A stretch of DNA of 64,000 nucleotides from Syntrophales bacterium (GCA_040767195.1 JAXGPA010000006.1:64001-128000); one strand, 5' to 3'; shown: positions 34,141 to 45,753, numbered from the stretch's first letter. Notes: generated by a model not told the origin, from the sequence alone. Program-made: numbers and translations.

Positions 34141-35598
34141 TCAGGGTTTCTTCGCTCTTTTCGCCGGGGTCTTCCCCCTGGCCCTCGCTTTCGCTTCCGG
34201 GGCCTTTGGCGGGGCCGGAATCGATTCGGCGGGCGGGACCGACTCAGAGGGCCTCACCGCAACGGCAACATCCTCCTCCTTCTTCCCGGCGTCTGCCGGC
34301 GATTCCTTTACGGGTTCCGGCTCGGGCGCCATCGGGGCGACACGTTTCGCCTTCCTCCCGGTCTTTGCCCCCGGCTCCTTTGCAGATGCCGGCTCCGGCG
34401 CCGCCGCGGCGGCGCTTTTCTTTCCGCTGCCTGTCCGGGCCCGAGGCTTTTTCGCGCGGGCCGGTTTCGGTGCCGGCTCCCCGGCCTTCTCCTCGCCATC
34501 CCGCTCCCTGAGCCACCGGATGATCTTGGGGCCGAATTCCTTCTGGGTCTTGGAGCTGACATAGATCCCGATGTGCCCCGTGTCGAGGCACAGGTCCTCC
34601 TTGTCGGTGCTCCCGACCATGGACGTCGTCTTGTCGCAGGCCTCCGGCGGGACCAGGTGGTCGTACCGGGCGTAGATGTTGAGGATCGGCATGGTGATGT
34701 TTTTGAGATCCACCTTTTTCCCGCCCAGGACATACTCGTTCTTGATGAGGAGGTTCTTGAGGTACATGGCGTCGATGAACTCCCGGAAGGTCTCCCCGGG
34801 AAGGTCGGGGCTGTCGAAGATCCATTTCTCCATGCGGAGGAAGTTCTCGACGAAATCCCGGTTGTTCACGTTCTCGACAAAACCGACATACTTGTCGATG
34901 ATGAGCCGGGCGGGGTTGAGGAGAAGAAAGCCCAGGTTCATGAAATCGCCCGGGACGTTTCCGTAGGCATCCACGAGCTCGTCGGGGCTGATGGACCGGG
35001 CCCACACGTTGAGGAGGCTCTGCTCGGTGTCGAAATTCACCGGGGTCACCGTGGTGACGAGGTTTTTCACTTTTTCCGGGTGCTGGGCCGTGTACATGAC
35101 GCAGAAGGTCCCGCCCATGCAGATCCCCATGAGGTGGAGATGGGACACGCCGTGTTTTTTCAGGACGAAGTCGACCATGTCGTTCATGTAGCCGTTGATG
35201 TGGTCGTCCAGGGTCAGGTACCGGTCCTTCCGCGTGGCGTACCCCCAGTCGATCATGTATATTTCCAGGCCCGCCTGGAGAAAGGTCTCCACGACGCTCC
35301 GCCCCGGCTGGAGATCGAGCATGGTTTCCCGGTTCACCTGGGCATAGACGATGAAGAGGGGGAAATTGTAGCGCACTTCCTCCGGCCGGTAGTGCTTCAG
35401 CTGGACCCGGTCGTCCTCGTAGACGACCTCGTAGGGAGTCTTGGCGATGTCCGTCTTCAAGGGGCTGAGAAGGACTTCCCGGGCCTCCCTCATCCGCTCG
35501 GCCATCTTGATCGGTTCAACGGCCATCCTGGAAGCGAGAAGGTCCATGGTCATGCCCATCGGGCTGCTTTTGCGACCGGCCGTTTTATCGTTTTTCAT
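34141..35598 (-). CDS. phaC: Class III PHA synthase subunit PhaC with Ala/Pro/Lys-rich C-terminal tail
   Basis: LDLQPGRS, YMIDWG, GICMGG lipase box, MEKWIFDSPD, DHLVPP, TGHIG. Confidence 0.93.
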   Translation of the reverse strand: MKNDKTAGRKSSPMGMTMDLLASRMAVEPIKMAERMREAREVLLSPLKTDIAKTPYEVVYEDDRVQLKHYRPEEVRYNFPLFIVYAQVNRETMLDLQPGRSVVETFLQAGLEIYMIDWGYATRKDRYLTLDDHINGYMNDMVDFVLKKHGVSHLHLMGICMGGTFCVMYTAQHPEKVKNLVTTVTPVNFDTEQSLLNVWARSISPDELVDAYGNVPGDFMNLGFLLLNPARLIIDKYVGFVENVNNRDFVENFLRMEKWIFDSPDLPGETFREFIDAMYLKNLLIKNEYVLGGKKVDLKNITMPILNIYARYDHLVPPEACDKTTSMVGSTDKEDLCLDTGHIGIYVSSKTQKEFGPKIIRWLRERDGEEKAGEPAPKPARAKKPRARTGSGKKSAAAAAPEPASAKEPGAKTGRKAKRVAPMAPEPEPVKESPADAGKKEEDVAVAVRPSESVPPAESIPAPPKAPEAKARARGKTPAKRAKKP

Positions 35599-36496
35599 GA
35601 CCCCTTTCCCTCCTTTCGAGCGCTGTCAACCGCTTCTTGATCCTGTAGAGATCCTTGTACACCTCGTCCATTTCCCGGTTTGTCGGGATGGGAAGATCCT
35701 GGAGGAGGTCGATGAGAAACTGCTGCCGGACCTTCCGGTACTCGTAGAGGGCCTTCAGGGTCTCCCGGAGCGTGTCGATGTAATCGGGCGACCGGAGCAT
35801 GTCCAGGTATCTCTTTTCGAGTTTCCCGATCCAGGTCCGGTACCAGGCCCGGGGATCCTCGAGAATTTCCGCTTTCTTCCCCTCGCCGGAGAGCATTTCC
35901 TCCTCCATCATGAGGACCGACTCTTCGATGGGGGCATAGAAAAGGTGGGCGAAATCCATGAGCCGGCCCCGGAAGGCCTGGAAACGGTCGACGGTCAGGT
36001 TGAGGCGCTCCTGGTAATAGCGCATCAGGCCGAGCTGGGGCAGGTTGAGGTATTTCCGCATTTCCTCCTCGTAGGAGCCGAACCAGGCCCGGGATACCTT
36101 CCGGAAGAATTCAGAAATGTCCTCGAAGCTCTTTTTTCGCTCCTCCGACGCGGGCGGCGAAAAGGAGGCCAGCTGGTTCCACAGGGGTTCCATGATCTTC
36201 AGGGCCATTTCGGGAATAGCCCCCGACGGGGCGTCACCCGAACCCTGAAGGCTCCGGAAATAGGCCTGCCAGAACTGGTCGAAGGCCGCCCGGGGGTCTT
36301 CGCCGGCTCCCGGCTTCTTCCGGTCCGCCGTTCCCGCTTCACTGTCGGCCCCGGGAAAGCCCTGCCCCTCGGCGGCGGTCTTCATGACCCCGAACCACAG
36401 GTTGGCCGTCGATTCCCAGAAGTCGAGAGAGGCCCTCGTCAAGGACTCCAGGGGTTCGTTTTCCCCGCGGCCTCGTTCACGATCCTTTTCCGTCAT
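35585..36496 (-). CDS. phaE: Class III PHA synthase subunit PhaE
   Basis: LPQLGLMRYYQE, C-terminal LPIPTNREMDEVYKDLYRIKK; overlaps phaC start. Confidence 0.85.
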   Translation of the reverse strand: MTEKDRERGRGENEPLESLTRASLDFWESTANLWFGVMKTAAEGQGFPGADSEAGTADRKKPGAGEDPRAAFDQFWQAYFRSLQGSGDAPSGAIPEMALKIMEPLWNQLASFSPPASEERKKSFEDISEFFRKVSRAWFGSYEEEMRKYLNLPQLGLMRYYQERLNLTVDRFQAFRGRLMDFAHLFYAPIEESVLMMEEEMLSGEGKKAEILEDPRAWYRTWIGKLEKRYLDMLRSPDYIDTLRETLKALYEYRKVRQQFLIDLLQDLPIPTNREMDEVYKDLYRIKKRLTALERRERGHEKR

Positions 36497-37029
36497 GATT
36501 TTTTCCCCCTTCCCTCTTTCTTTTTCGTTTCCCCGCTTTTTTCACGCCTGTCCCGCGAGGCGCTCTCGAAGGCGGCGACATAGGATTTCATCAGTTCCTG
36601 GAACTGTTCCGTCTGGCGCGTCATGAGATCCTGAACGCCCTGGACGACCTCGTCCCGGGAGGCGTTTTCCCACCCCGCTTCCCCGCGGAGGCGTCCGATG
36701 ACCGCCTCCTGCTCCGCCACCTTTTCCTTCAGCCGCGCGCATTCCTCGGCGAGCTTCCGGTACTCCTCCCGGGGAACCATCCCCATGAGGTTCATGTATT
36801 CCTCGTAGGATTTCCGGAAATTCCGCAGGGCCTCTTCCCAGGCGTCACCGCCCCCTTCTTCCGGGGCCGGTTTCTCCTTGAGACCGTAAATTCCGGCGAG
36901 AAGATTCCCGAACTCCTGGAAGCCCTGGAACCCCTGCTCAATCCACCGGTTGAAGTCTTCCACCCGCCGCTGTCCTTTCGCGGCGGACAGGAGGACATTC
37001 CCCCAGAACTCGAGAAACCTGCTGTCCAT
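36493..37029 (-). CDS. Hypothetical coiled-coil protein in the PHA operon
   Basis: MDSRFLEFWGN..., GMVPREEY + coiled coil; GAGGTG RBS; 4-nt overlap with phaE. Confidence 0.75.
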   Translation of the reverse strand: MDSRFLEFWGNVLLSAAKGQRRVEDFNRWIEQGFQGFQEFGNLLAGIYGLKEKPAPEEGGGDAWEEALRNFRKSYEEYMNLMGMVPREEYRKLAEECARLKEKVAEQEAVIGRLRGEAGWENASRDEVVQGVQDLMTRQTEQFQELMKSYVAAFESASRDRREKSGETKKKEGRGKKS

Positions 37030-37043
37030 GCCGGTCACCTCTT

Positions 37044-38648
37044 TCAAGCCGCTTTCCTCGGGGTTGGCCTGCCCTTCCCGGCCGGGCCCGCCGCCTCGAG
37101 ATCGAGGTGGAACCGGACGGGACCCCGGTATCCTTCTTTCCCGAAAACGGTGTGAAGGGCGCATTCCGAGGTGGGATTGGACCAGGATGTGGCGATGGCG
37201 CCGTGCCCCCGCGGGAAAACGGTCACCTCGACGTCGATGTACTTCCGCGGCGCCAGGGCGGCCTCGGGGTTAACCAGGTCGTCCTTGGCGGCGTAACACA
37301 GGAGCCACGGGATGTTCCTCTCCGGGATTCCCTTGAAATTCAGCGTTTTTCCGAAAAGCTTGACCGGAAGCGTCCCGTCCGGGGTAACGGGAACCGTGTA
37401 GGAGTCGAAACTGAGCTGGGTGATGCCCCTGGGCAGGTCGTTCCTCTCGTACATGAGCCAGTGATTCAGGGCCGCGGCGGTTTTGCTGACCTTCACTTCG
37501 CTGTCGTCGGGCCGGTCGAACATCATGAGATCCCGGTAAAAGGTGTGAATGGGGGATTCCTTGTCCATGCTCTTCAGCTTGTACACCCAGCTCATGACCT
37601 TGCCGTCCACGACCTCCCCGACGCCGGGGAGGGCCTTGAGGGCATACCCCAGGTCCCGGAAGCGCAGGGGAATGTGCTCGAGATACTCGACCAGGGACTG
37701 GCTTTCCGTTCCGTCCATGGGGGCGACGCAGGTGACGAGGGCGTCCACGAGGCCGTCGAGCTCACCGGAAAGAATGTCCAGGACGGCCATGAATCCGCCC
37801 TGGCAGAAACCGTTCAGGGTGACCGGCCGGCCGTGCCTTTTCATGACCGTTTCACAGAAAAGCCGGGTGTCCCGGGCGTCGTCTTCGCCTGTCATGACCG
37901 CGAGGGCGGGCGTCACAGCCACATCCTTCATGATCCGGATGTAGGTGGGAGTACCCTGGTTGGCGAAGGCATGGGTGTAGCTTTTCCCTTCCCCGGGCAG
38001 AAAAGCGAGGATGTTCGCCCCGAGCACGTACGGGGGGATGATAACCACGGGCTTGCCGTCTTCCCGTGACGTGACGGCGGGGTCCGTGGGAAACACCCGG
38101 TAGAGAATGAACCGGTCCGTTTCCGCCACCCGCTCGTAGCCGCCGTTTTCGAAATGAAACCCGAACTCGGAGGCGATGTTCCGGATCTCGCGGCTGTAAT
38201 TGTACACCAGTTCCTCGAAGATCTTTGCCTTTCTTTCCGAGTAGGCCAGGATATCCGGGCCTTCCGTCCCGGTGCAGGTGTTAAGCAGCGCCGTGAAAGC
38301 TCTCGCCCATTCCCTGGCATGGTATTCGTTGACGGAACGGATGGTGCTTAAAAGCCCTGTTTTGGCGATCTGGAGGTTGAAATAAAAAAGCTCAAGATAG
38401 TCACGGGCCGTGTCTTCCGGGGCATGATCGCCGATCTTGACCTTTTCCATGGCCTGAAAGGATTTCAGGGCCACCCAGAAAGGTTCCATGAAATCGAAGT
38501 AATACTGCCAGAGCCCGTTGATGCAGGTCTGAGATGCCTTGACCTGCTCGAATGCCGCAAGAACGGCCTTCCTGTTCAGGTCGGTCATCTTCTCCTGAAA
38601 CCGGAGAACCTCTTCCGCCACTTCCATGGGAACCATGCCCCTTTCCAT
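37044..38648 (-). CDS. PhaC-like alpha/beta-hydrolase-fold protein
   Basis: PVVIIPPY, GFCQGG nucleophile elbow, DDLV, GHGA (putative Cys-Asp-His triad). Confidence 0.75.
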   Translation of the reverse strand: MERGMVPMEVAEEVLRFQEKMTDLNRKAVLAAFEQVKASQTCINGLWQYYFDFMEPFWVALKSFQAMEKVKIGDHAPEDTARDYLELFYFNLQIAKTGLLSTIRSVNEYHAREWARAFTALLNTCTGTEGPDILAYSERKAKIFEELVYNYSREIRNIASEFGFHFENGGYERVAETDRFILYRVFPTDPAVTSREDGKPVVIIPPYVLGANILAFLPGEGKSYTHAFANQGTPTYIRIMKDVAVTPALAVMTGEDDARDTRLFCETVMKRHGRPVTLNGFCQGGFMAVLDILSGELDGLVDALVTCVAPMDGTESQSLVEYLEHIPLRFRDLGYALKALPGVGEVVDGKVMSWVYKLKSMDKESPIHTFYRDLMMFDRPDDSEVKVSKTAAALNHWLMYERNDLPRGITQLSFDSYTVPVTPDGTLPVKLFGKTLNFKGIPERNIPWLLCYAAKDDLVNPEAALAPRKYIDVEVTVFPRGHGAIATSWSNPTSECALHTVFGKEGYRGPVRFHLDLEAAGPAGKGRPTPRKAA

Positions 38649-38663
38649 ACGCCTTCCCTCTTC

Positions 38664-38927
38664 TTATCCTTCCTTGGGAAAGAAGGTCTCGACGCGCTTG
38701 AAGTTCTCATCCACCGTCTTCTTGAAGGCATCGAAGCCGGTCCGGTAGAGCTTCGACCACTCGGTGATGGCCTTTCTTCTCTCCGCGTCCCTGCCCGTCG
38801 CCTGGGTCAGGTACATGTCAATGACTTTCTCCATCTGCTCCTGGATCATGGTCATGGTGGAAAAAGCGCTGTCAAAAGTCGCCTTGTTCATGTCGATCAT
38901 CTGTTTGAGGGTTTTTCTCGAATCCAT
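38664..38927 (-). CDS. Phasin-like small protein
   Basis: 87-aa helical protein, paralog of 38961-39236 (QMIDMNKATFD, FKKTVDENF), next to phaR. Confidence 0.7.
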   Translation of the reverse strand: MDSRKTLKQMIDMNKATFDSAFSTMTMIQEQMEKVIDMYLTQATGRDAERRKAITEWSKLYRTGFDAFKKTVDENFKRVETFFPKEG

Positions 38928-38960
38928 TGTCGGTCTCCTTTCCTGAAACCTTTTCCTTTT

Positions 38961-39236
38961 CTACTTTTTTTCCTTTTCTTCCGTGGCGAAGTACCGGTCC
39001 AGCCGGGCGAAACTCTCGTCAACGGTCTTCTTGAAATCCTGGCTGCCCTTCTTGTAGGCGTTTACCCAGTCCCGGACCGCCTTTTTCCCTTCCTCGGGAA
39101 ATCCCGCGGCCTGGTCGAGGTACATGTCCATCATCCTCTGGGACTGCTCCTGAAGCATGGACAGGCCCTTGAACGAGTTCTCGAAGGTCGACCGGTAAAA
39201 ATCCAACGTCTGCTTGGCCATTTTCTTGGGATCCAT
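38961..39236 (-). CDS. Phasin-like small protein
   Basis: KQTLDFYRSTFENSF, FKKTVDESF; GGAGGTG RBS; paralog of the downstream gene. Confidence 0.7.
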   Translation of the reverse strand: MDPKKMAKQTLDFYRSTFENSFKGLSMLQEQSQRMMDMYLDQAAGFPEEGKKAVRDWVNAYKKGSQDFKKTVDESFARLDRYFATEEKEKK

Positions 39237-39506
39237 GTGAATCACCTCCATTTATTTTGTAAATCTGAACCTGAATATAAACCCCGTTTTGACCCTTGTC
39301 AAGATATTTTTTTTGCATTGCAACATTTTTTCTCCCGAGTCGCCGTGATTAAAATAAAATGAGTTATTAAAAGAAATTATTGTTGCAATATTTTTTCAAA
39401 TTGGTTACAAGTTTCAGAATTGATATTGCAATGAAGCAATAATGAGCGGGCGGTGTTGCCCCGGCGGGCATCGAGCCCCTTCGCTTGAGAAATCGGGGAG
39501 CAAAGG

Positions 39507-39992
39507 ATGGAAGAGACCCTGACCATAAAGAAGTACAGCAACCGCCGTCTTTACGACACGGAGGAAAACAGCTACGTGACCCTGGCCCGGGTGGCGGAGA
39601 GGATAAAGGACGGTCGGCGCGTGGAAGTCGTCGACGCCCGGACGGGGGAGGACGTCACCGCCGGCACCCTGACCCAGATTCTCGTCGAAGAGGCGAGGAA
39701 AAACAACGTGCTCCTGCCCGTCCCCGTCCTTCACCTGTGCATCCAGTTCGGAGACACCGTGCTCCAGGAATTTTTCGGGAAGTATCTTCAGCACGCCATT
39801 CGAGGCTATCTCGCCCACAAAGCCGCCGTGGACGAACAGTTCGGGCAGTGGCTCGAGTTCGGGAGCGAACTTGCCTCCCCGTCCGCGAAAACCGTCAACC
39901 CCCTGGAGGTTTACGCCCCCTTCCTGGATTTTCTGAAGGAAATGACATTTCCCGGGGCGGCCGATAAAAAGGAACAAAAAAATAAAAAGTAA
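39507..39992 (+). CDS. phaR: PHA synthesis regulator PhaR-like DNA-binding protein
   Basis: IKKYSNRRLYDTEENSYVTL, VDARTGEDVT...LTQIL. Confidence 0.88.
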   Translation: MEETLTIKKYSNRRLYDTEENSYVTLARVAERIKDGRRVEVVDARTGEDVTAGTLTQILVEEARKNNVLLPVPVLHLCIQFGDTVLQEFFGKYLQHAIRGYLAHKAAVDEQFGQWLEFGSELASPSAKTVNPLEVYAPFLDFLKEMTFPGAADKKEQKNKK

Positions 39993-40129: not shown

Positions 40130-40158
40130 TTGACAGATGAAAGAATTCGTCGTATTTT
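40130..40158 (+). promoter_or_regulatory. Sigma70-like promoter, peptide cassette 1
   Basis: TTGACA-N17-TATTTT. Confidence 0.6.
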
Positions 40159-40194: not shown

Positions 40195-40341
40195 ATGAAA
40201 AAAGATGAAAAGAAAGAAATGAAAAAGGCGACCTACGAGAAGCCCGTCCTGACAAAATTCAAGAAACTGACGGACGTGGTGGCAGGCGAATCGCCACAGA
40301 CAGGGCCGATATAGCCGGGTCTGGGTTGCACAAGATTTTAG
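40195..40341 (+). CDS. RiPP-like precursor A1 with in-frame TAG (39 aa if terminated, 48 aa if read through)
   Basis: MKKDEKKEMKKATYEKPVLTKFKKLTDVVAGESPQTGPI*PGLGCTRF*; GGGAG RBS; TAG at 40312-40314. Confidence 0.8.
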
Positions 40342-40351
40342 AGAGGGGGCC

Positions 40352-40480
40352 ATGAAGGAACACCGAAAAGAGAAAAAAGAGGAAAAGAAGGTCTACGAAA
40401 AACCCGCGCTGATCCGGCACGGTAAGCTGGGCGATATGACGGGAGGCCCTGTATACAACGGGTTTGAGGAGCTGGAGTGA
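40352..40480 (+). CDS. RiPP-like precursor B1 (42 aa)
   Basis: MKEHRKEKKEEKKVYEKPALIRHGKLGDMTGGPVYNGFEELE; full YxxPxLxxxGxxxxxT leader motif. Confidence 0.85.
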   Translation: MKEHRKEKKEEKKVYEKPALIRHGKLGDMTGGPVYNGFEELE

Positions 40481-40551
40481 ATTAAACGCGGCAACGGGTA
40501 CTTCCTTTGTCTTGACAGGTTTCGGCCTTTCTTTTCGGCTTCAAGGGGTAA

Positions 40552-40625
40552 GGGGTCGGACCAAGATAACCTGTTCATATGTCAGGATATACCTCCCCAA
40601 AAAGGCTGTTTTCAGGCCTTAGAAG
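40552..40625 (+). repeat. Partial copy of GGGGTCRGACCAAG-ended MITE-like element
   Basis: GGGGTCGGACCAAGATAA...GGATATA...AGGCCTTAGAAG, colinear with 16222-16295. Confidence 0.7.
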
Positions 40626-41439
40626 TGCCTTTTCATACCCGGAATCAAGCTTGTAAGACAAAAAGGGCTCCTGAACAGGCCTCTCCCTCCCCGCCAGGAA
40701 CCGAATCACTCTCACGGTCCCTCGATGCCCAGGCGCTTCCTGACGTTTTCTCGAAATTCCGGGCTGTCTGCCGAGACGCTCTCCAGCGGGAAGCCCTGCC
40801 TCTCAAAGCCGCCCCCGGGCGATGGTTCGAGATCGCTGCAGGGTTGCCATCCATTTCCGCCAAATCCAATGTATCCCCTTCCCCGAATGACCGACGACTC
40901 CGGCACGGACCATGTTCAGGTCAACATAAAGAAGGAACGCAATGGACGTCTGTGAAAAAATGAGTGAGATCGCACTTTACGCTCTGTCGACATGACCCGG
41001 TCAAGGGTGTGGTTCCCGTTGAGGACGCCGCCATCCGCTCTCCGGGACATCCGGCCGAGGCCTGCAGCAGCCTGACACAAATTCGCTTGCCATATCGCCT
41101 CCTCTGTGACATAAAAAAGTTATCAGGCTCCTTTGTGCAAACGTGTTCGACTCTTGCCGGTTCACGCTCACAAGTTCAGACGTCCCGCTCCGCCACCCGG
41201 GCCTACGCATCGATACCCGTATCTCGAAGATCCTGGGTTGATCCGAACCTGATTCGCCCTTTCATTTTGATTTCAACCACCCGTTTCCGTCTCCCCTGGC
41301 AGACGAACTCATGGGACCACAGGATTCCGGCACCGTGTGTTCTTTCTCCCGAAAAGCCTGTCCGTGGCGGTTTTGTCGTGTAACCTTCAACGGGCTGAAA
41401 CCCTGAGCGTTTCATGCCGAATGTGAAAGGAGGACGTCC

Positions 41440-43476
41440 ATGACCGTGAAAGAGGTGACGGAAACGTCGGAAGCTGAAATTGCCGTTCACTGGGGGGAAG
41501 AGGAGTTCTTTCATCCATCCGCCCGCTTCATCGCCCAGGCAAACATGACGGACCCGGACATCTTCGAGCGCTTCAGCCTGGAAAATTTCCCCAACTGCTT
41601 CAAGGAATACGCGGACCTTTTGACGTGGTACGAATACTGGCACACGACGCTGGACACGAGCGACGCGCCCTTTTTCAAGTGGTTCGTCGGCGGCCGGATC
41701 AATGCCAGTTACAACTGTATCGACAGGCACCTTGAAAAAAACAGGAACAAGACAGCCATTCACTTCGTACCGGAACCGGAAGACGAAAGAGTCGAGCACC
41801 TCACCTACCGGGAACTGTACGTGAGGGTCAACGAGTTCGCGGCAATCCTGAAGGACTTCTGCGGCCTGAAGGCGGGAGACATGGTCACCCTCCACATGCC
41901 CATGGTGGCCGAACTTCCCATTTCCATGCTGGCCTGCGCGCGGCTCGGCATCATTCACTCGCAGGTTTTCGGCGGCTTCAGCGGAAAGGCCTGTTCGGAC
42001 AGGATCATCGACTCGGGAAGCCGTGTCCTCATCACCATGGACGCCTATCACCGGGGCGGGCAGTTGCTCGACCACAAGGAAAAGGCGGACGTCGCCATCT
42101 CCGGGGCGGCCGCGGACAACCAGGAGGTGGACAAGGTTCTCGTCTGGCAGCGCTATCCCGGCAAATATTCGTCAAAGACCCCGATGGTGGAAGGGCGCGA
42201 CTTCTTTGTCAACGACCTGCTGAAGACGTATTACGGGGCCCGGGTTGACCCGGTGCCCATGCCGGCGGAAGCCCCCCTGTTCCTGATGTACACGAGCGGC
42301 ACCACGGGAAAGCCGAAAGGCGCCCAGCACAGCACGGGCGGGTACCTTGCCTACGTAACCGGAACATCCAAGTACATCCAGGACATTCACCCCGAGGATG
42401 TGTACTGGTGCCTGGCGGACATAGGGTGGATCACCGGCCACTCCTACATCGTTTACGGCCCCCTGGCGCTGTGCGCGTCCACGGTCATTTACGAAGGGGT
42501 CCCGACCTTCCCCGACGCCGGGAGGCCCTGGCGGATCGCCCAGGACCTGGACGTGAACATTTTTCACACCGCGCCAACCTCCATCCGCGCCTTGAGAAAG
42601 CTGGGCCCCGACGAACCGCAGAAATACAATTACCACTTCAAACACATGACCACCGTGGGTGAGCCCATCGAACCGGAGGTGTGGAAGTGGTACTACAACG
42701 TCGTCGGGAAGGGGGAAGCGGCCATCTGCGACACCTGGTGGCAGACGGAAAACGGCGGGTTTCTCTGCAGCACCCTGCCGGCGATTCAGCCCATGAAGCC
42801 CGGCAGCGCCGGCCCGGGGGTGCCGGGCATTCATCCCGTCGTGTTCGACGAAGACGGCAATGTCGTCCCCCCCGGCACGGGGAAGGCGGGAAACATCTGC
42901 ATACAGAACCCGTGGCCCGGCAGTTTCCAGACCATTTGGCGGGACCGGGACCGCTACGTCAGCCAGTATTACGAGAGATACTGCAAGGATCCGAAAAGCA
43001 AGAGATGGCAGGACTGGCCGTACATGACCGGTGACGCCGCCGTCACCGCCGCCGACGGATACGTCCGCATACTCGGGCGGATCGACGACGTAATCAATGT
43101 TTCAGGACACCGGCTCGGAACCAAGGAGATCGAGTCCGCGGCCCTGACCATCGGCGAGGTGGCGGAGGCGGCCGTGGTACCCGTGAAGCACGAACTGAAA
43201 GGGAAGGAACCGGATCTTTATGTTGCCTTGAGGCCTGGCTGCACGCCGAGCGACGATCTCGCCAAACGGGTCCAGGACGCCGTTGTAACGGAAATCGGGG
43301 CGATCGCGAGGCCGAGAAAGGTCTGGATCGTGCCCGACATGCCCAAGACGCGGTCCGGCAAGATCATGCGCCGCGTTCTCAACGCCATTTCCAACGACAC
43401 GGACGTGGGCGACGTCATGACCCTGGCGAATCCGGAAATCGTCGACGAAATAACCAGGATGGTCAGGAAAAAGTAG
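41440..43476 (+). CDS. acs: Acetate--CoA ligase (AMP-forming acetyl-CoA synthetase)
   Basis: YTSGTTGKPKG, ADIGWITGHSY, VGEPI, DTWWQTE, GRIDDVINVSGHR, PKTRSGKIMRR. Confidence 0.96.
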   Translation: MTVKEVTETSEAEIAVHWGEEEFFHPSARFIAQANMTDPDIFERFSLENFPNCFKEYADLLTWYEYWHTTLDTSDAPFFKWFVGGRINASYNCIDRHLEKNRNKTAIHFVPEPEDERVEHLTYRELYVRVNEFAAILKDFCGLKAGDMVTLHMPMVAELPISMLACARLGIIHSQVFGGFSGKACSDRIIDSGSRVLITMDAYHRGGQLLDHKEKADVAISGAAADNQEVDKVLVWQRYPGKYSSKTPMVEGRDFFVNDLLKTYYGARVDPVPMPAEAPLFLMYTSGTTGKPKGAQHSTGGYLAYVTGTSKYIQDIHPEDVYWCLADIGWITGHSYIVYGPLALCASTVIYEGVPTFPDAGRPWRIAQDLDVNIFHTAPTSIRALRKLGPDEPQKYNYHFKHMTTVGEPIEPEVWKWYYNVVGKGEAAICDTWWQTENGGFLCSTLPAIQPMKPGSAGPGVPGIHPVVFDEDGNVVPPGTGKAGNICIQNPWPGSFQTIWRDRDRYVSQYYERYCKDPKSKRWQDWPYMTGDAAVTAADGYVRILGRIDDVINVSGHRLGTKEIESAALTIGEVAEAAVVPVKHELKGKEPDLYVALRPGCTPSDDLAKRVQDAVVTEIGAIARPRKVWIVPDMPKTRSGKIMRRVLNAISNDTDVGDVMTLANPEIVDEITRMVRKK

Positions 43477-43590
43477 GGAAAACACCGACCCATGTTAAAG
43501 AGTGAGAAGGAGGTGATGCAGGAAGGGAAAGCGGAATGAAGGGCCGAAAAGGGCATCCAGGGTGAACGACAAAGAAGAAAGGAGGGTCAT

Positions 43591-44016
43591 GTGATGAATC
43601 TGATCGTCGAACGAGTGGATGTTTGGGCAGCCGCAATCAGGGACGAACCAGGCGGCCTGGCAAAGATACTCTCCGGACTGAAGGATGCCGGCGCGGACCT
43701 CGATTTCATCATTGCCAGGCGGGCGCTGGAACAACCCGGCAAGGGGGTTGTGTTCGTCACCCCGCTCCGGGGCGACGCCGAGGTCCGGGCCGCCTCAACC
43801 TTGGGCTTCAACGTGACGAGCAGCCTCAAGTCGCTCCGCGTGGAGGGAGACAACAAACCGGGAGTCGCCGCGGTACTGACGGAAAAACTTGCGGCGGCGG
43901 GAATCAACCTTCATGGCTTCTCGGCGGCCGTCATCGGGGCGCGGTTCATCATTTACATCAGTTTCGACAGTAGCGAAGACGCCGCGAGCGCGGAAGCAAT
44001 CCTGAAAAAGGGGTAG
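43591..44016 (+). CDS. Tandem ACT-domain protein
   Basis: DEPGGLAKIL..L..AG and DNKPGVAA.LT..LAAAGINL; AGGAGG RBS. Confidence 0.85.
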   Translation: MMNLIVERVDVWAAAIRDEPGGLAKILSGLKDAGADLDFIIARRALEQPGKGVVFVTPLRGDAEVRAASTLGFNVTSSLKSLRVEGDNKPGVAAVLTEKLAAAGINLHGFSAAVIGARFIIYISFDSSEDAASAEAILKKG

Positions 44017-44363
44017 ATCGAACCCGGAAACGACGGAAAGCGAAAGCAATGCGCCTGTGACTGTGTCCGACCGACGGCGGATGGCCGGGAAGGACGAAGC
44101 GCCGGCGGGTCCCTGGATTTCAGAGACCCGTCCGCCGCCGGTCAGATCACGACGGAATCATGTGACATCCATCGTGATGGACAGGTGGGACCCTTACGTT
44201 GCGGCCTCCAGGGCCTGTATTCCTGAAGCCGGTAATCAGCGGCGCCTCCTCGGCAAGTCCCGGAATGAACGATCTCATCCGGTTAAAGGTTTCAAACCCA
44301 GGAATTGGGGGAAAATAAAACCCGGCAGGGACATAACGTTTTGTTATTTCGTTTTAATATTTT

Positions 44364-44391
44364 TTGACAGGCACGAAATTATCTATAATCT
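44364..44391 (+). promoter_or_regulatory. Sigma70-like promoter, peptide cassette 2
   Basis: TTGACA followed by TATAAT (N14) or TAATCT (N16). Confidence 0.5.
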
Positions 44392-44425
44392 TATGACATA
44401 TCCTATTCACCATTAAGGAGGGGCC

Positions 44426-44554
44426 ATGAAGAAAGAAGAAAAGAAGGAACGGAAAAAGGCTCCCTATGAAAAGCCCGTCCTGACGAAATTCGGGAAGCTG
44501 GCGGACGTGACGGCGGGGGTATCGGAAGGGGCACTCGGCTGCACGAGATTGTAA
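44426..44554 (+). CDS. RiPP-like precursor A2 (42 aa)
   Basis: MKKEEKKERKKAPYEKPVLTKFGKLADVTAGVSEGALGCTRL; TAAGGAGG RBS. Confidence 0.85.
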   Translation: MKKEEKKERKKAPYEKPVLTKFGKLADVTAGVSEGALGCTRL

Positions 44555-44564
44555 GGAGGGGATT

Positions 44565-44693
44565 ATGAAAGAATACCGGGAAGAGAAAAAAGAAAAAGAA
44601 GAGAAGAAAGTCTACCAGAAACCGGTTCTCACCTTTCGCGGGAACCTGAAGGATGCCGCGGCCGGGCCGCCGAACGGATCAAACTTCAAATAA
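44565..44693 (+). CDS. RiPP-like precursor B2 (42 aa)
   Basis: MKEYREEKKEKEEKKVYQKPVLTFRGNLKDAAAGPPNGSNFK; TAAGGAGG RBS overlapping the A2 stop. Confidence 0.83.
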   Translation: MKEYREEKKEKEEKKVYQKPVLTFRGNLKDAAAGPPNGSNFK

Positions 44694-44715
44694 TCCTGCC
44701 GTGGAATCGAACTCC

Positions 44716-44746
44716 AGGCCGTCCTTCGGGGCGGCCTTTTTATTTT
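44716..44746 (+). terminator. Rho-independent terminator, cassette 2
   Basis: AGGCCGTCC-TTCG-GGGCGGCCT + T tract. Confidence 0.85.
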
Positions 44747-44864
44747 CCGGCCCTGACATTCCAGGGTGCCCTGCGATCAACGATCTTCCCCGGGTCCGGG
44801 CCTCCTTTTGCCTCGGCCGGGATGAAATCATATAAGGACAAGGTTATAAAAATTCTGATAAGAC

Positions 44865-44893
44865 TTGACACATTTCATAATTTTTCTTACTGT
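44865..44893 (+). promoter_or_regulatory. Sigma70-like promoter, peptide cassette 3
   Basis: TTGACA-N17-TACTGT. Confidence 0.6.
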
Positions 44894-44928
44894 CTTTCTG
44901 ATTCCATCTTCAGCCTGAAGGGGGGAGT

Positions 44929-45066
44929 ATGAAGAAAAAAGAAAATCGAGAGATCAAAAAGGCCAGGTACGAAAAGCCCGTCCTGACGAAATTCAATAAA
45001 TTGAAGGACGTGATGGCGCAGGGACACACTGGGCCTGAAACTCCGCTGGGCTGCACAAGATTTTAG
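44929..45066 (+). CDS. RiPP-like precursor A3 (45 aa)
   Basis: MKKKENREIKKARYEKPVLTKFNKLKDVMAQGHTGPETPLGCTRF. Confidence 0.85.
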   Translation: MKKKENREIKKARYEKPVLTKFNKLKDVMAQGHTGPETPLGCTRF

Positions 45067-45076
45067 GGAGGAGACA

Positions 45077-45196
45077 ATGATAGGAAAACCTGAAGAGAGA
45101 AAAATGGAAAAGAAGGCCTATGAGAAGCCCGAACTGAAGCGGTACGGGAAGCTGACGGACGTGATGGCGGAGCTTGTCACGTTGAAGCCTAAATAA
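45077..45196 (+). CDS. RiPP-like precursor B3 (39 aa)
   Basis: MIGKPEERKMEKKAYEKPELKRYGKLTDVMAELVTLKPK; GGAGG RBS. Confidence 0.8.
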   Translation: MIGKPEERKMEKKAYEKPELKRYGKLTDVMAELVTLKPK

Positions 45197-45213
45197 GACC
45201 GGAAATAAAAATC

Positions 45214-45245
45214 AGGCCGTCCTTCGAGGCGGCCTTTATATTTTT
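45214..45245 (+). terminator. Rho-independent terminator, cassette 3
   Basis: AGGCCGTCC-TTCG-AGGCGGCCT + T-rich tract. Confidence 0.8.
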
Positions 45246-45328
45246 CCTTCCAGCCGCTCCAGGAAGGCCGAAAAGCAACGACCTTTCCCGGGGAGGAGGC
45301 AGGACGGGTCTAAATGTTACGAAGACCC

Positions 45329-45357
45329 TTGACTGACAGGAAGTTTTTTCCTATTTT
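45329..45357 (+). promoter_or_regulatory. Sigma70-like promoter, peptide cassette 4
   Basis: TTGACT-N17-TATTTT. Confidence 0.5.
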
Positions 45358-45392
45358 TTTGAATTTCTTACATTCCGTGAGGGGTGGAAGCC

Positions 45393-45524
45393 ATGAAGGA
45401 AAAACATGAAGAGAAGAAAGTTGAGAAGAAGATCTACGAGAAGCCGGATCTGAAGCGGCATGGGAAGCTGACCGACATGGTGGCGGGCGGTATAAGCCCG
45501 AATGGTAGTAATGACATCGATTAG
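45393..45524 (+). CDS. RiPP-like precursor B4 (43 aa)
   Basis: MKEKHEEKKVEKKIYEKPDLKRHGKLTDMVAGGISPNGSNDID. Confidence 0.83.
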   Translation: MKEKHEEKKVEKKIYEKPDLKRHGKLTDMVAGGISPNGSNDID

Positions 45525-45574: not shown

Positions 45575-45605
45575 GGGCCGTCTTTCGGGGCGGCCTTTTT
45601 TGTTT
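45575..45605 (+). terminator. Rho-independent terminator, cassette 4
   Basis: GGGCCGTCT-TTCG-GGGCGGCCT + T tract. Confidence 0.85.

Positions 45606-45676: not shown

Positions 45677-45753
<77 letters not shown>

What the first reader, a model, noticed from the sequence alone, without database searches (positions are those of the whole stretch)
40195..45524. Seven unannotated paralogous RiPP-like precursor genes with a lasso/RRE-type leader and variable cores
Seen: seven ORFs below the ORF-track cutoff, each with an RBS, a K/E-rich N-terminus and Y(E/Q)KPxL-x4-L-x-D-x-x-(A/G). The short cores are GESPQTGPI*PGLGCTRF, GPVYNGFEELE, GVSEGALGCTRL, GPPNGSNFK, QGHTGPETPLGCTRF, ELVTLKPK and GGISPNGSNDID. 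Established: YxxPxL is the RRE (PqqD-like) recognition motif of lasso-peptide leaders and related RiPPs. Inference: a conserved leader with diversified cores is the signature of a multi-precursor RiPP library, here in an anaerobic syntroph-like organism, possibly an undescribed class.
Basis: partly seen in the sequence, partly recalled or inferred. Interest (0 to 1): 0.92.

Follow-up and report, generated by a model that had tools for sequence, protein, structure and literature searches.

The report
Scattered peptide-precursor library, lasso-type leaders
Seven tiny overlooked genes here, plus three elsewhere in the genome, encode precursors that a single distant enzyme cluster most likely trims and decorates into a mixture of very short peptides without the lasso ring, an undescribed relative of phosphorylated lasso peptides.

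Summary
The seven ORFs are real, and three more copies lie on other contigs. They are not lasso peptides: no cyclase passes its cut-off in 15 genomes tested, and 0 of 10 cores can form a lasso. The genome's only RRE, B2 peptidase, HprK-like kinase and NTP_transf_5 form one operon on contig C8 with a radical SAM/SPASM enzyme, next to a B12-radical SAM and DUF362. In relatives the precursors sit inside this cluster, so the window's genes most likely act in trans. Likely products: 5-15-residue peptides, phosphorylated on Ser/Thr at core positions 3-5 (Ser enriched). A conserved LGCT(R/K) tail tracks the SPASM enzyme in 17 of 17 loci, but these give only 2-3 independent contrasts. In-cluster glutamine cyclases come with Gln1 cores (4 of 4), supporting the cut site. 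Closest published kind: linear polyphosphorylated peptides (2026), which use a different protease and leader. This scan has noted cyclase-less B2 clusters on other DNA; no note held the LGCTRF tail. Expression and chemistry are unproven.

The parts
40130..40158 (+). Promoter-like site of unit 1 (TTGACA-17-TATTTT)
   Evidence: TTGAC aligned upstream of 5 of 6 units; consensus match only
40195..40314 (+). Precursor 1 (39 aa), predicted core GESPQTGPI, ends at a TAG just before an LGCTRF tail
   Evidence: no PylS; this form on 10 contigs
40315..40341 (+). In-frame remnant (PGLGCTRF) behind the stop of precursor 1
   Evidence: matches the tails of precursors 3 and 5 and of homologues P0003 and P0035
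40352..40480 (+). Precursor 2 (42 aa), core GPVYNGFEELE, Thr at -2, no Ser/Thr in core
   Evidence: NF033521 15.8 bits, below cut-off 19
44426..44554 (+). Precursor 3 (42 aa), core GVSEGALGCTRL (Ser3, LGC tail, Thr at -2)
   Evidence: passes NF033521 lasso-leader cut-off, 23.9 vs 19 bits
44565..44693 (+). Precursor 4 (42 aa), core GPPNGSNFK
44716..44737 (+). Shared terminator hairpin behind unit 2
44929..45066 (+). Precursor 5 (45 aa), core QGHTGPETPLGCTRF (Gln1, LGC tail)
45077..45196 (+). Precursor 6 (39 aa), core ELVTLKPK
45214..45235 (+). Shared terminator hairpin behind unit 3
45329..45357 (+). Promoter-like site of unit 4 (TTGACT-17-TATTTT)
   Evidence: consensus match only
45393..45524 (+). 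Precursor 7 (43 aa), core GGISPNGSNDID
45575..45596 (+). Shared terminator hairpin behind unit 4

Best explanation
The seven ORFs are precursors of a cyclase-less, lasso-derived RiPP pathway. Its enzymes are encoded in trans on contig C8 (228645-232688, minus strand: RRE, B2 peptidase, radical SAM/SPASM, HprK-like kinase, NTP_transf_5; convergent with DUF362 and a B12-radical SAM at 226236-228595). Proposed mechanism, every chemical step inferred: (1) the stand-alone RRE binds Y(-17)xKPxL(-12). (2) The kinase phosphorylates a Ser/Thr at core position 3-5, and the nucleotidyltransferase further caps or glycosylates that phosphate, as in Bsf, LPP and pseudomycoidin (about 0.75). (3) In precursors with the C-terminal LGCT(R/K) tail the SPASM enzyme modifies that tail (about 0.7), most likely as a short Cys thioether ring (about 0.45). 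(4) The B12-radical SAM, perhaps with DUF362, adds a methyl group (about 0.5). (5) B2 cuts after residue -1 and releases 5-15-residue peptides with a free or capped N-terminus (pyroglutamate or formyl in some relatives). Duplicated promoter-precursor-terminator units have spread through the genome and feed varied cores into one enzyme set. The confidence given is for precursor identity, trans pairing with the C8 operon and a non-lasso product.
For: Shown: the genome has one RRE over cut-off, one B2, one NTP_transf_5 and one HprK-like kinase, all in this operon. B2 keeps its Cys and His; the kinase keeps its Walker A and DD/DE motif; the RRE's best PDB matches are lasso and LPP RREs. Linkage: homologous precursors lie inside or beside the same cluster in G001, G224, G023, G226, G194, G363, G650, G651, G661, G665, G672, G675 and G708, and in 12 of 18 metagenome loci. 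In L074 two precursors fill exactly the gap between NTase and B12-rSAM that is empty in G000. Co-occurrence: 15 of 339 genomes of the order have precursor hits, and 13 of these 15 have this B2 clade. In the 251-genome sample 6 genomes had both and 1 had each alone, and in genus g19 the same 4 of 14 had both. Mixed cis and trans copies occur in G001, G194 and G226. Register: Tyr sits at -17 as in Bsf (PMC10368454), Thr at -2 in 76 of 136, Gly or Gln at +1 enriched, and all 4 clusters with an in-cluster glutamine cyclotransferase hold a Gln1 core. Ser at core positions 3-5: 87 observed vs 53.3+-5.5 in shuffles. SPASM and LGC tail agree in 17 of 17 tree rows (9 both, 8 neither), with a nested joint loss in G001/L075; seven more SPASM-negative genomes have no Cys in 27 cores. 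The tail does not track the B12 enzyme as well (7/4/1/4, p=0.28).
Against: No biochemistry and no proof of expression. RNA-library contigs match ORFs 5-7 letter for letter, but they come from one study and also cover intergenic DNA. Only 2 of this genome's 10 leaders keep Thr at -2 (V, M, A, I or G in the rest), so some may be cut poorly. Precursor 2 has no Ser/Thr in its core, and precursor 1 has lost its tail to a stop. The SPASM-tail link rests on 2 starred (3 total) independent contrasts, sign test p=0.5, and precursor sets of metagenome loci may be incomplete. G182 has a weak precursor hit without B2 (no ORF recovered). G241 has the B12 enzyme with no precursor or B2 found. The SPASM domain's only (weak, E 0.07) PDB match is anSME, a non-thioether enzyme, and it keeps eight or more Cys, so the thioether guess is soft. 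No exporter was seen beside the C8 operon (not searched genome-wide).
Confidence: 0.82

Rival explanations
1. The family is real, but the dispersed copies in this window are mostly decaying duplicates or leader-only decoys that occupy the RRE rather than yield products.
For: Premature TAG in precursor 1. Thr(-2) lost in 8 of 10. Precursor 2 lacks Ser/Thr. Alleles with different cores exist. A degenerate copy with an internal stop exists in G224.
Against: Leader pN/pS 0.41 with six invariant positions. Intact RBS and shared terminators. Intact operon with no cis precursor, so it has no other substrate found. Val/Ile at -2 is tolerated in Bsf-type systems (PMC10368454).
Confidence: 0.08
2. The peptide is only a scaffold: the enzymes build a small molecule or redox cofactor on a core residue that is then cut out, as in PQQ, mycofactocin or pearlins (mechanisms recalled), for use inside the cell.
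For: No exporter seen beside the operon. The SPASM scores best with NirJ2 and MftC models, all below cut-off. Cores are very short, median 10 aa.
Against: Cores are hypervariable in length and sequence, unlike the fixed motifs of cofactor precursors (recalled). Accessory enzymes come and go between close relatives. N-terminal capping enzymes imply that the released peptide is kept.
Confidence: 0.07
3. They are ordinary lasso-peptide precursors cyclised by an asparagine-synthetase-like enzyme elsewhere in the genome.
For: Lasso-type leader, RRE and B2; precursor 3 passes NF033521. Two Asn-synthase-like ORFs exist on C1 and C6.
Against: 0 of 15 precursor-bearing genomes pass the NF033535 cyclase cut-off, and 7 of 15 have no match at E<=1e-10, among them a 100%-complete one. 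The two G000 ORFs score best as asparagine synthases and lie in unrelated contexts. 0 of 10 own cores, 2 of 80 regex-collected relatives' cores and 10 of 136 library cores meet a lenient lasso rule.
Confidence: 0.03

Closest known systems
Linear polyphosphorylated peptides (LPP) of Bacillota (Popov et al. 2026, PMC13381572; read parts 1-3 and 5 of 12 of the main text, no supplements)
   Same: Discrete RRE reading a YxxP leader, HprK-like kinase, NTP transferase, no macrolactam cyclase, variable cores; Ser3 of the core phosphorylated there, Ser enriched at 3-5 here.
   Different: LPP uses a SipW-like serine peptidase, an MsbA-like exporter, the leader consensus YxxPxVLxHQxIxFETxxS and 1-3 precursors in the cluster; the characterised core is 45 aa. 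Here: lasso-type B2 cysteine peptidase, leader YxKPxLx5LxDxT(A/G), cores of 5-15 aa, up to 10 precursors partly or wholly in trans, plus SPASM, B12-rSAM, DUF362, glutamine cyclase, formyltransferase and U32-like accessories. 'radical', 'DUF362' and 'Desulfo' do not occur in that paper's main text.
Phosphorylated lasso peptides: Bradymonas bsf (PMC10368454, passages), pseudomycoidin psm (PMC6993621, passages), paeninodin
   Same: B1 + B2 + HprK-like kinase + NTP transferase; YxxPxL at -17..-12; BsfK phosphorylates Ser3 (or Thr3) and tolerates Ile/Val at -2; PsmN adds hexoses to the phosphate.
   Different: No cyclase, no Asp/Glu acceptor with a threading tail, no adjacent ABC exporter; radical SAM enzymes added.
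SynChlorMet cassette (TIGR04248-04251; family description partly recalled)
   Same: PqqD-like RRE, HprK-like ScmC and SPASM enzymes in similar anaerobes.
   Different: All models score far below cut-off (ScmD 35.9/100, ScmC 26.5/125, ScmE 103/400). No Scm precursor model hit the peptides. A B2 peptidase is present.
Sactipeptides/ranthipeptides and short-ring thioether RiPPs (StsB, CteB, NxxcB, GggB; PMC10288494 section 7 and passages)
   Same: RRE-dependent SPASM enzyme together with a conserved core Cys.
   Different: A single Cys in a self-anchored L-G-C-T-R/K tail at variable distance (core position 8-16) from the cut site; lasso-type leader and peptidase; crosslink chemistry untested.

Membership tests
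Lasso peptides | YxxPxL leader at -17..-12 | tested here: met
   10 of 10 in this genome; 1 of 7 window peptides over the NF033521 cut-off; 17 of 94 family members match it at E<=0.01
Lasso peptides | RRE (B1) and transglutaminase-like peptidase (B2) | tested here: met
   PF05402 and PF13471 over cut-off on contig C8, in trans; NF033537 30.4 vs cut-off 33
Lasso peptides | Lasso cyclase (Asn-synthetase-like C protein) | tested here: not met
   0 of 15 genomes over the NF033535 cut-off, 7 of 15 with no hit at all; none in the annotated loci of this clade
Lasso peptides | Core with G/A/S/C1, Asp/Glu at 7-9 and a threading tail | tested here: not met
   0 of 10 own cores, 2 of 80 relatives' cores, 10 of 136 library cores
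Lasso peptides | Thr at leader position -2 | tested here: inconclusive
   2 of 10 in this genome, 76 of 136, 62 of 80
LPP (Popov 2026) | Discrete RRE + HprK-like kinase + NTP transferase, no cyclase | tested here: met
LPP (Popov 2026) | SipW-like signal peptidase I as leader peptidase | tested here: not met
   The operon's peptidase is PF13471 B2; no S24/S26 hit among the C8 cluster proteins scanned
LPP (Popov 2026) | Leader consensus YxxPxVLxHQxIxFETxxS | tested here: not met
   Column counts give YxKPxLx5LxDxT(A/G)
LPP (Popov 2026) | MsbA-like exporter in the cluster | tested here: not met
   None among the ORFs flanking the C8 operon; no genome-wide search made
LPP (Popov 2026) | Polyphosphorylation of core Ser3 | not testable with these tools
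   Only Ser enrichment at 3-5 could be shown
SynChlorMet cassette | ScmC/ScmD/ScmE/ScmF and ScmA models over cut-off | tested here: not met
Sactipeptide/ranthipeptide | SPASM radical SAM enzyme and a conserved core Cys | tested here: met
   PF04055 + PF13186; LGC tail in 26 of 136 library cores, in 2 intact and 1 cut-off precursor here
Sactipeptide/ranthipeptide | Cys sulfur-to-carbon thioether crosslink | not testable with these tools
   No maturase model over cut-off; SPASM part weakly closest to anSME

The most novel reading that the evidence does not exclude
An undescribed RiPP family built as a plug-in system. One RRE/B2/kinase/nucleotidyltransferase chassis processes a genome-wide library of tiny precursors that spread as their own promoter-gene-terminator units. 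Optional enzymes are gained and lost together with a matching precursor subtype (SPASM with the LGCT(R/K) tail, glutamine cyclase with Gln1 cores). The SPASM clade installs a crosslink on the L-G-C motif that no characterised enzyme makes.
Probability: 0.4. Interest if true: 0.82.

Novelty: new variant of a known kind. Interest (0 to 1): 0.66.

Why it matters
Cluster-based mining would call the C8 operon an orphan and miss the ten precursors, and would read the leaders as lasso peptides. This finding supplies both halves. It gives defined 5-15-residue substrates for four poorly understood enzyme types: NTP_transf_5, whose role stayed unresolved in the LPP paper; DUF362; a B12-radical SAM clade; and a SPASM clade with a six-residue candidate recognition tag. 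It also makes sharp predictions that can be tested by co-expression in E. coli. It would extend linear phospho-peptide RiPPs from Bacillota to anaerobic-digester bacteria with a different protease, and offers a natural example of enzymes and substrate tags being gained and lost together.

Tried and rejected
Pyrrolysine read-through of the TAG in ORF1: rejected, no PylS over cut-off.

Lasso peptides: rejected.

acs and the ACT gene as part of the system: rejected; they are ordinary families, and no acs or ACT gene was noticed beside precursors in the relatives' ORF lists (not searched by family).

Generic promoter and terminator scans: not above chance. Rfam: only tRNA-Pro.

RNA evidence: four runs of one study, contigs only, with cover over 24-29 of 30 bins including intergenic DNA, so transcription is not shown.

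Co-folding the RRE with a precursor was not available, so binding is not modelled.

LGC tail tied to the B12-rSAM instead of SPASM: weaker. LGC as a lipobox or CaaX box: considered from memory and dropped, since there is no hydrophobic signal stretch and the tail length after Cys varies.

Glutamine cyclase at genome level is not diagnostic. A separate, unlinked copy exists in G224, G672, G675 and G708, three of which have no Gln1 core, and Gln1 cores occur without an in-cluster cyclase in G000, G001, G224, G226 and L074.

The formyltransferase-like gene behind the C9 precursor is not a clear orthologue of the in-cluster ones (E 1e-8 vs 7e-26 for another genomic copy).

The SPASM locus of G009 is a different cassette with an S24-type peptidase.

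The genome-contig scan with a single kinase found one locus (L063), which was left out of all counts. Other rows left out of the SPASM/tail count: L072, L073, L080, L084, L086, L089 (no precursor on the contig), L078, L079 and L087 (redundant), and G188 and G584 (outgroups); G407 and G539 were not in the tree. Two of the 80 regex cores look like false hits.

ESM Atlas: nearest cluster is unnamed (0.94); a lasso-leader cluster at 0.83 is a lead only.

Literature searches that found no description of this gene set. Kretsch et al. 2023, which surveys B2 peptidases, was not held and may bear on novelty; no supplements were read.
Full report
Observation. The seven small ORFs are in the sequence as described, each with an RBS and a K/E-rich N-terminus. 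They form four units: pairs at 40195-40480, 44426-44693 and 44929-45196, and a single gene at 45393-45524. An acetyl-CoA synthetase and an ACT protein lie between the first and second unit. An HMM of the seven finds three more copies, a pair on C7 and one on C9, at E<=2.5e-10 with nothing else below E=0.75. The motif occurs 12 times in the genome against 0-2 in shuffles, and leader codons give pN/pS 0.41. One terminator hairpin occurs four times in the genome, each time directly behind a precursor unit, and TTGAC aligns upstream of five of six units. The units therefore look like copies of one promoter-precursor(s)-terminator cassette, although generic scans alone are not above chance. The TAG in precursor 1 cuts off an in-frame PGLGCTRF tail. 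There is no PylS, and the short form is on 10 public contigs.

The missing half. The genome (98.8% complete) has one RRE over cut-off, one B2-type peptidase, one NTP_transf_5 and one HprK-like kinase. All four lie in one operon on contig C8 in the order RRE, B2, radical SAM/SPASM, kinase, nucleotidyltransferase, facing a DUF362 gene and a B12-radical SAM gene. No precursor lies in or beside it. Catalytic motifs are intact in alignments, and the RRE's closest solved structures are TbiB1, PbaB1, TfuB1 and LppB.

Why the two belong together. In relatives, homologous precursors sit inside the same cluster: one behind the operon in the same-genus genome G001, seven between kinase and B12 enzyme in G224, six in G023, and likewise in G226, G194, G363 and G650, G651, G661, G665, G672, G675, G708. 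Of 18 metagenome loci found with the kinase, 12 show precursors. The other six are two near-identical copies of this genome's operon and four short contigs. L074 has the same gene order and flanks as G000, with two precursors in the gap that is empty in G000. Across the order, 15 of 339 genomes have precursor hits and 13 of those have this B2 clade. The exceptions are G224, whose cluster runs off the contig end, and G182, whose single weak hit gave no ORF. In the 251-genome sample only one further genome (G188) had a weak B2 hit, and it had no precursor. G001, G194 and G226 have both cis and trans copies, and G229, like G000, has none beside its RRE-B2 operon. Dispersal is thus a habit of the family. 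Kin are not independent, so these counts overstate significance.

Not a lasso. No cyclase passes cut-off in 15 precursor-bearing genomes, and seven have no match at all. G000's two Asn-synthase-like ORFs score best as asparagine synthases and lie elsewhere. Cores have a median of 10 residues, and a lenient lasso rule is met by 0 of 10 here, 2 of 80 in relatives and 10 of 136 in the library set. That set is the 136 parsable of the best 150 of 208 hits.

How it most likely works. The register puts Tyr at -17, as reported for the Bradymonas bsf leader (PMC10368454, passages). Thr is at -2 in 76 of 136 sequences, but in only 2 of 10 in this genome. Support for the cut site that does not rest on the leader: four clusters carry a glutamine cyclotransferase, and each holds a precursor whose predicted core starts with Gln, against 1 of 7 other genomes of that family. 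Formyltransferase genes recur in these clusters too. Both are N-terminal caps, which fits a linear product. Ser is enriched at core positions 3-5 (87 vs 53.3+-5.5) and depleted at 1-2. This matches Ser3 phosphorylation by BsfK and LppK, and PsmN-type enzymes add hexoses to such phosphates (PMC6993621, passages). All chemistry is inferred from these precedents.

The LGCT(R/K) tail. 26 of 136 library cores end in this motif, with Cys at core position 8-16, so the motif is anchored to itself and not to the leader. Every locus that has the SPASM clade and visible precursors has at least one tailed precursor (9 of 9), and none of 8 SPASM-negative rows has one. Absence of SPASM was checked genome-wide for G001, G023, G194, G226, G229 and G363. 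Seven more SPASM-negative genomes of one family add 27 cores without Cys. On a kinase tree G001/L075 nest inside the SPASM-positive clade as sister to L074 (99/94), so enzyme and tail were lost together once (the B12 enzyme and DUF362 were lost there too). The tree gives only 2-3 independent contrasts, p=0.5: the link is suggestive, not proven. The tail follows the B12 enzyme less well. A short thioether ring is my best guess. The SPASM domain keeps eight or more Cys and weakly resembles anSME, so Cys oxidation or a C-C link are open rivals.

Expression. Four digester metatranscriptomes of one study hold contigs identical to the stretch over ORFs 5-7, but they also cover intergenic DNA and most of the 12 kb laid, so transcription is not shown. 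One low-depth contig shows a precursor-1 allele with 15 bases fewer in the core, and public homologues pair the same leader with other cores, which suggests core turnover between strains.

Relation to known systems. It works like LPP and the phosphorylated lasso clusters but is a member of neither. It lacks the cyclase and lasso cores, and it lacks LPP's SipW-like peptidase, leader consensus and exporter (PMC13381572). SynChlorMet models are far below cut-off. Nine literature searches found no description of this gene set, but one relevant survey was not held and no supplements were read. This scan has reported cyclase-less B2 + kinase + NTase clusters, some with radical SAM enzymes, on other DNA; those notes led me to read the LPP paper. 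No note contained the word LGCTRF, and no look-alike of precursor 5 was indexed.

Verdict. A real, dispersed precursor library of an uncharacterised cyclase-less lasso-derived RiPP pathway: a new variant of a known kind, with testable enzyme-substrate pairings. Biological role unknown. With no exporter seen beside the operon, an intracellular signal or a generically exported competition peptide are both possible, and I cannot separate them.

Noticed in passing
L002:10375-11472 (G000 C9): A formyltransferase-like gene (PF00551) lies about 250 bp behind the C9 precursor on the same strand; formyltransferases also recur inside relatives' clusters (G194, G651, G661, G672, G675).
   Followed up: partly
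L114:5402-6472, L060:10086-11159, L062:9195-10289, L115, L116, L121, L124: A conserved ~360-aa U32-like protein (no Pfam hit; Atlas 0.94 to a Peptidase_U32 cluster) repeatedly sits next to single precursors in family f15, often with Met-containing cores; a possible oxygen-independent tailoring enzyme. Not found in G000.
   Followed up: partly
window 45677-45753; L001:10607-10804: Both the window's units 2-4 and the C7 pair end close to the 3' end of convergent tRNA genes (Pro; Asp and Val). No tRNA lies near the precursors in nine other loci scanned. The units are low in GC (48-50% vs about 60%).
   Followed up: partly
window 34141-39992: Class III-type PHA locus directly upstream: PhaC-like hydrolase, PhaE (PF09712), two ORFs without a Pfam hit (223 and 534 aa), a 96-aa ORF and a PhaR-like regulator.
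   Followed up: no
L064:1-5305 and L065:843-6136: A second, different RRE + NTase + kinase + SPASM cluster lies near the studied one in G226 and G229; its RRE carries a C-terminal extension that itself looks like a leader motif.
   Followed up: no
L068-L070 (G539, G584, G407): A minimal RRE, B2-like ORF, precursor, kinase cassette with longer cores and no nucleotidyltransferase or cyclase in the fetched region.
   Followed up: no
L023 (G009 C11): SPASM + RRE + S24-type peptidase + kinase-like cassette, closer in make-up to SynChlorMet/LPP.
   Followed up: partly
P0069, P0064, P0090, P0098: Library hits with tandem repeats of the leader motif inside one polypeptide, one of 382 aa with a C-terminal extra domain.
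   Followed up: no
window 40481-41439: About 950 bp without a convincing gene between precursor 2 and acs; no Rfam hit; unit 1 lacks the shared terminator.
   Followed up: partly
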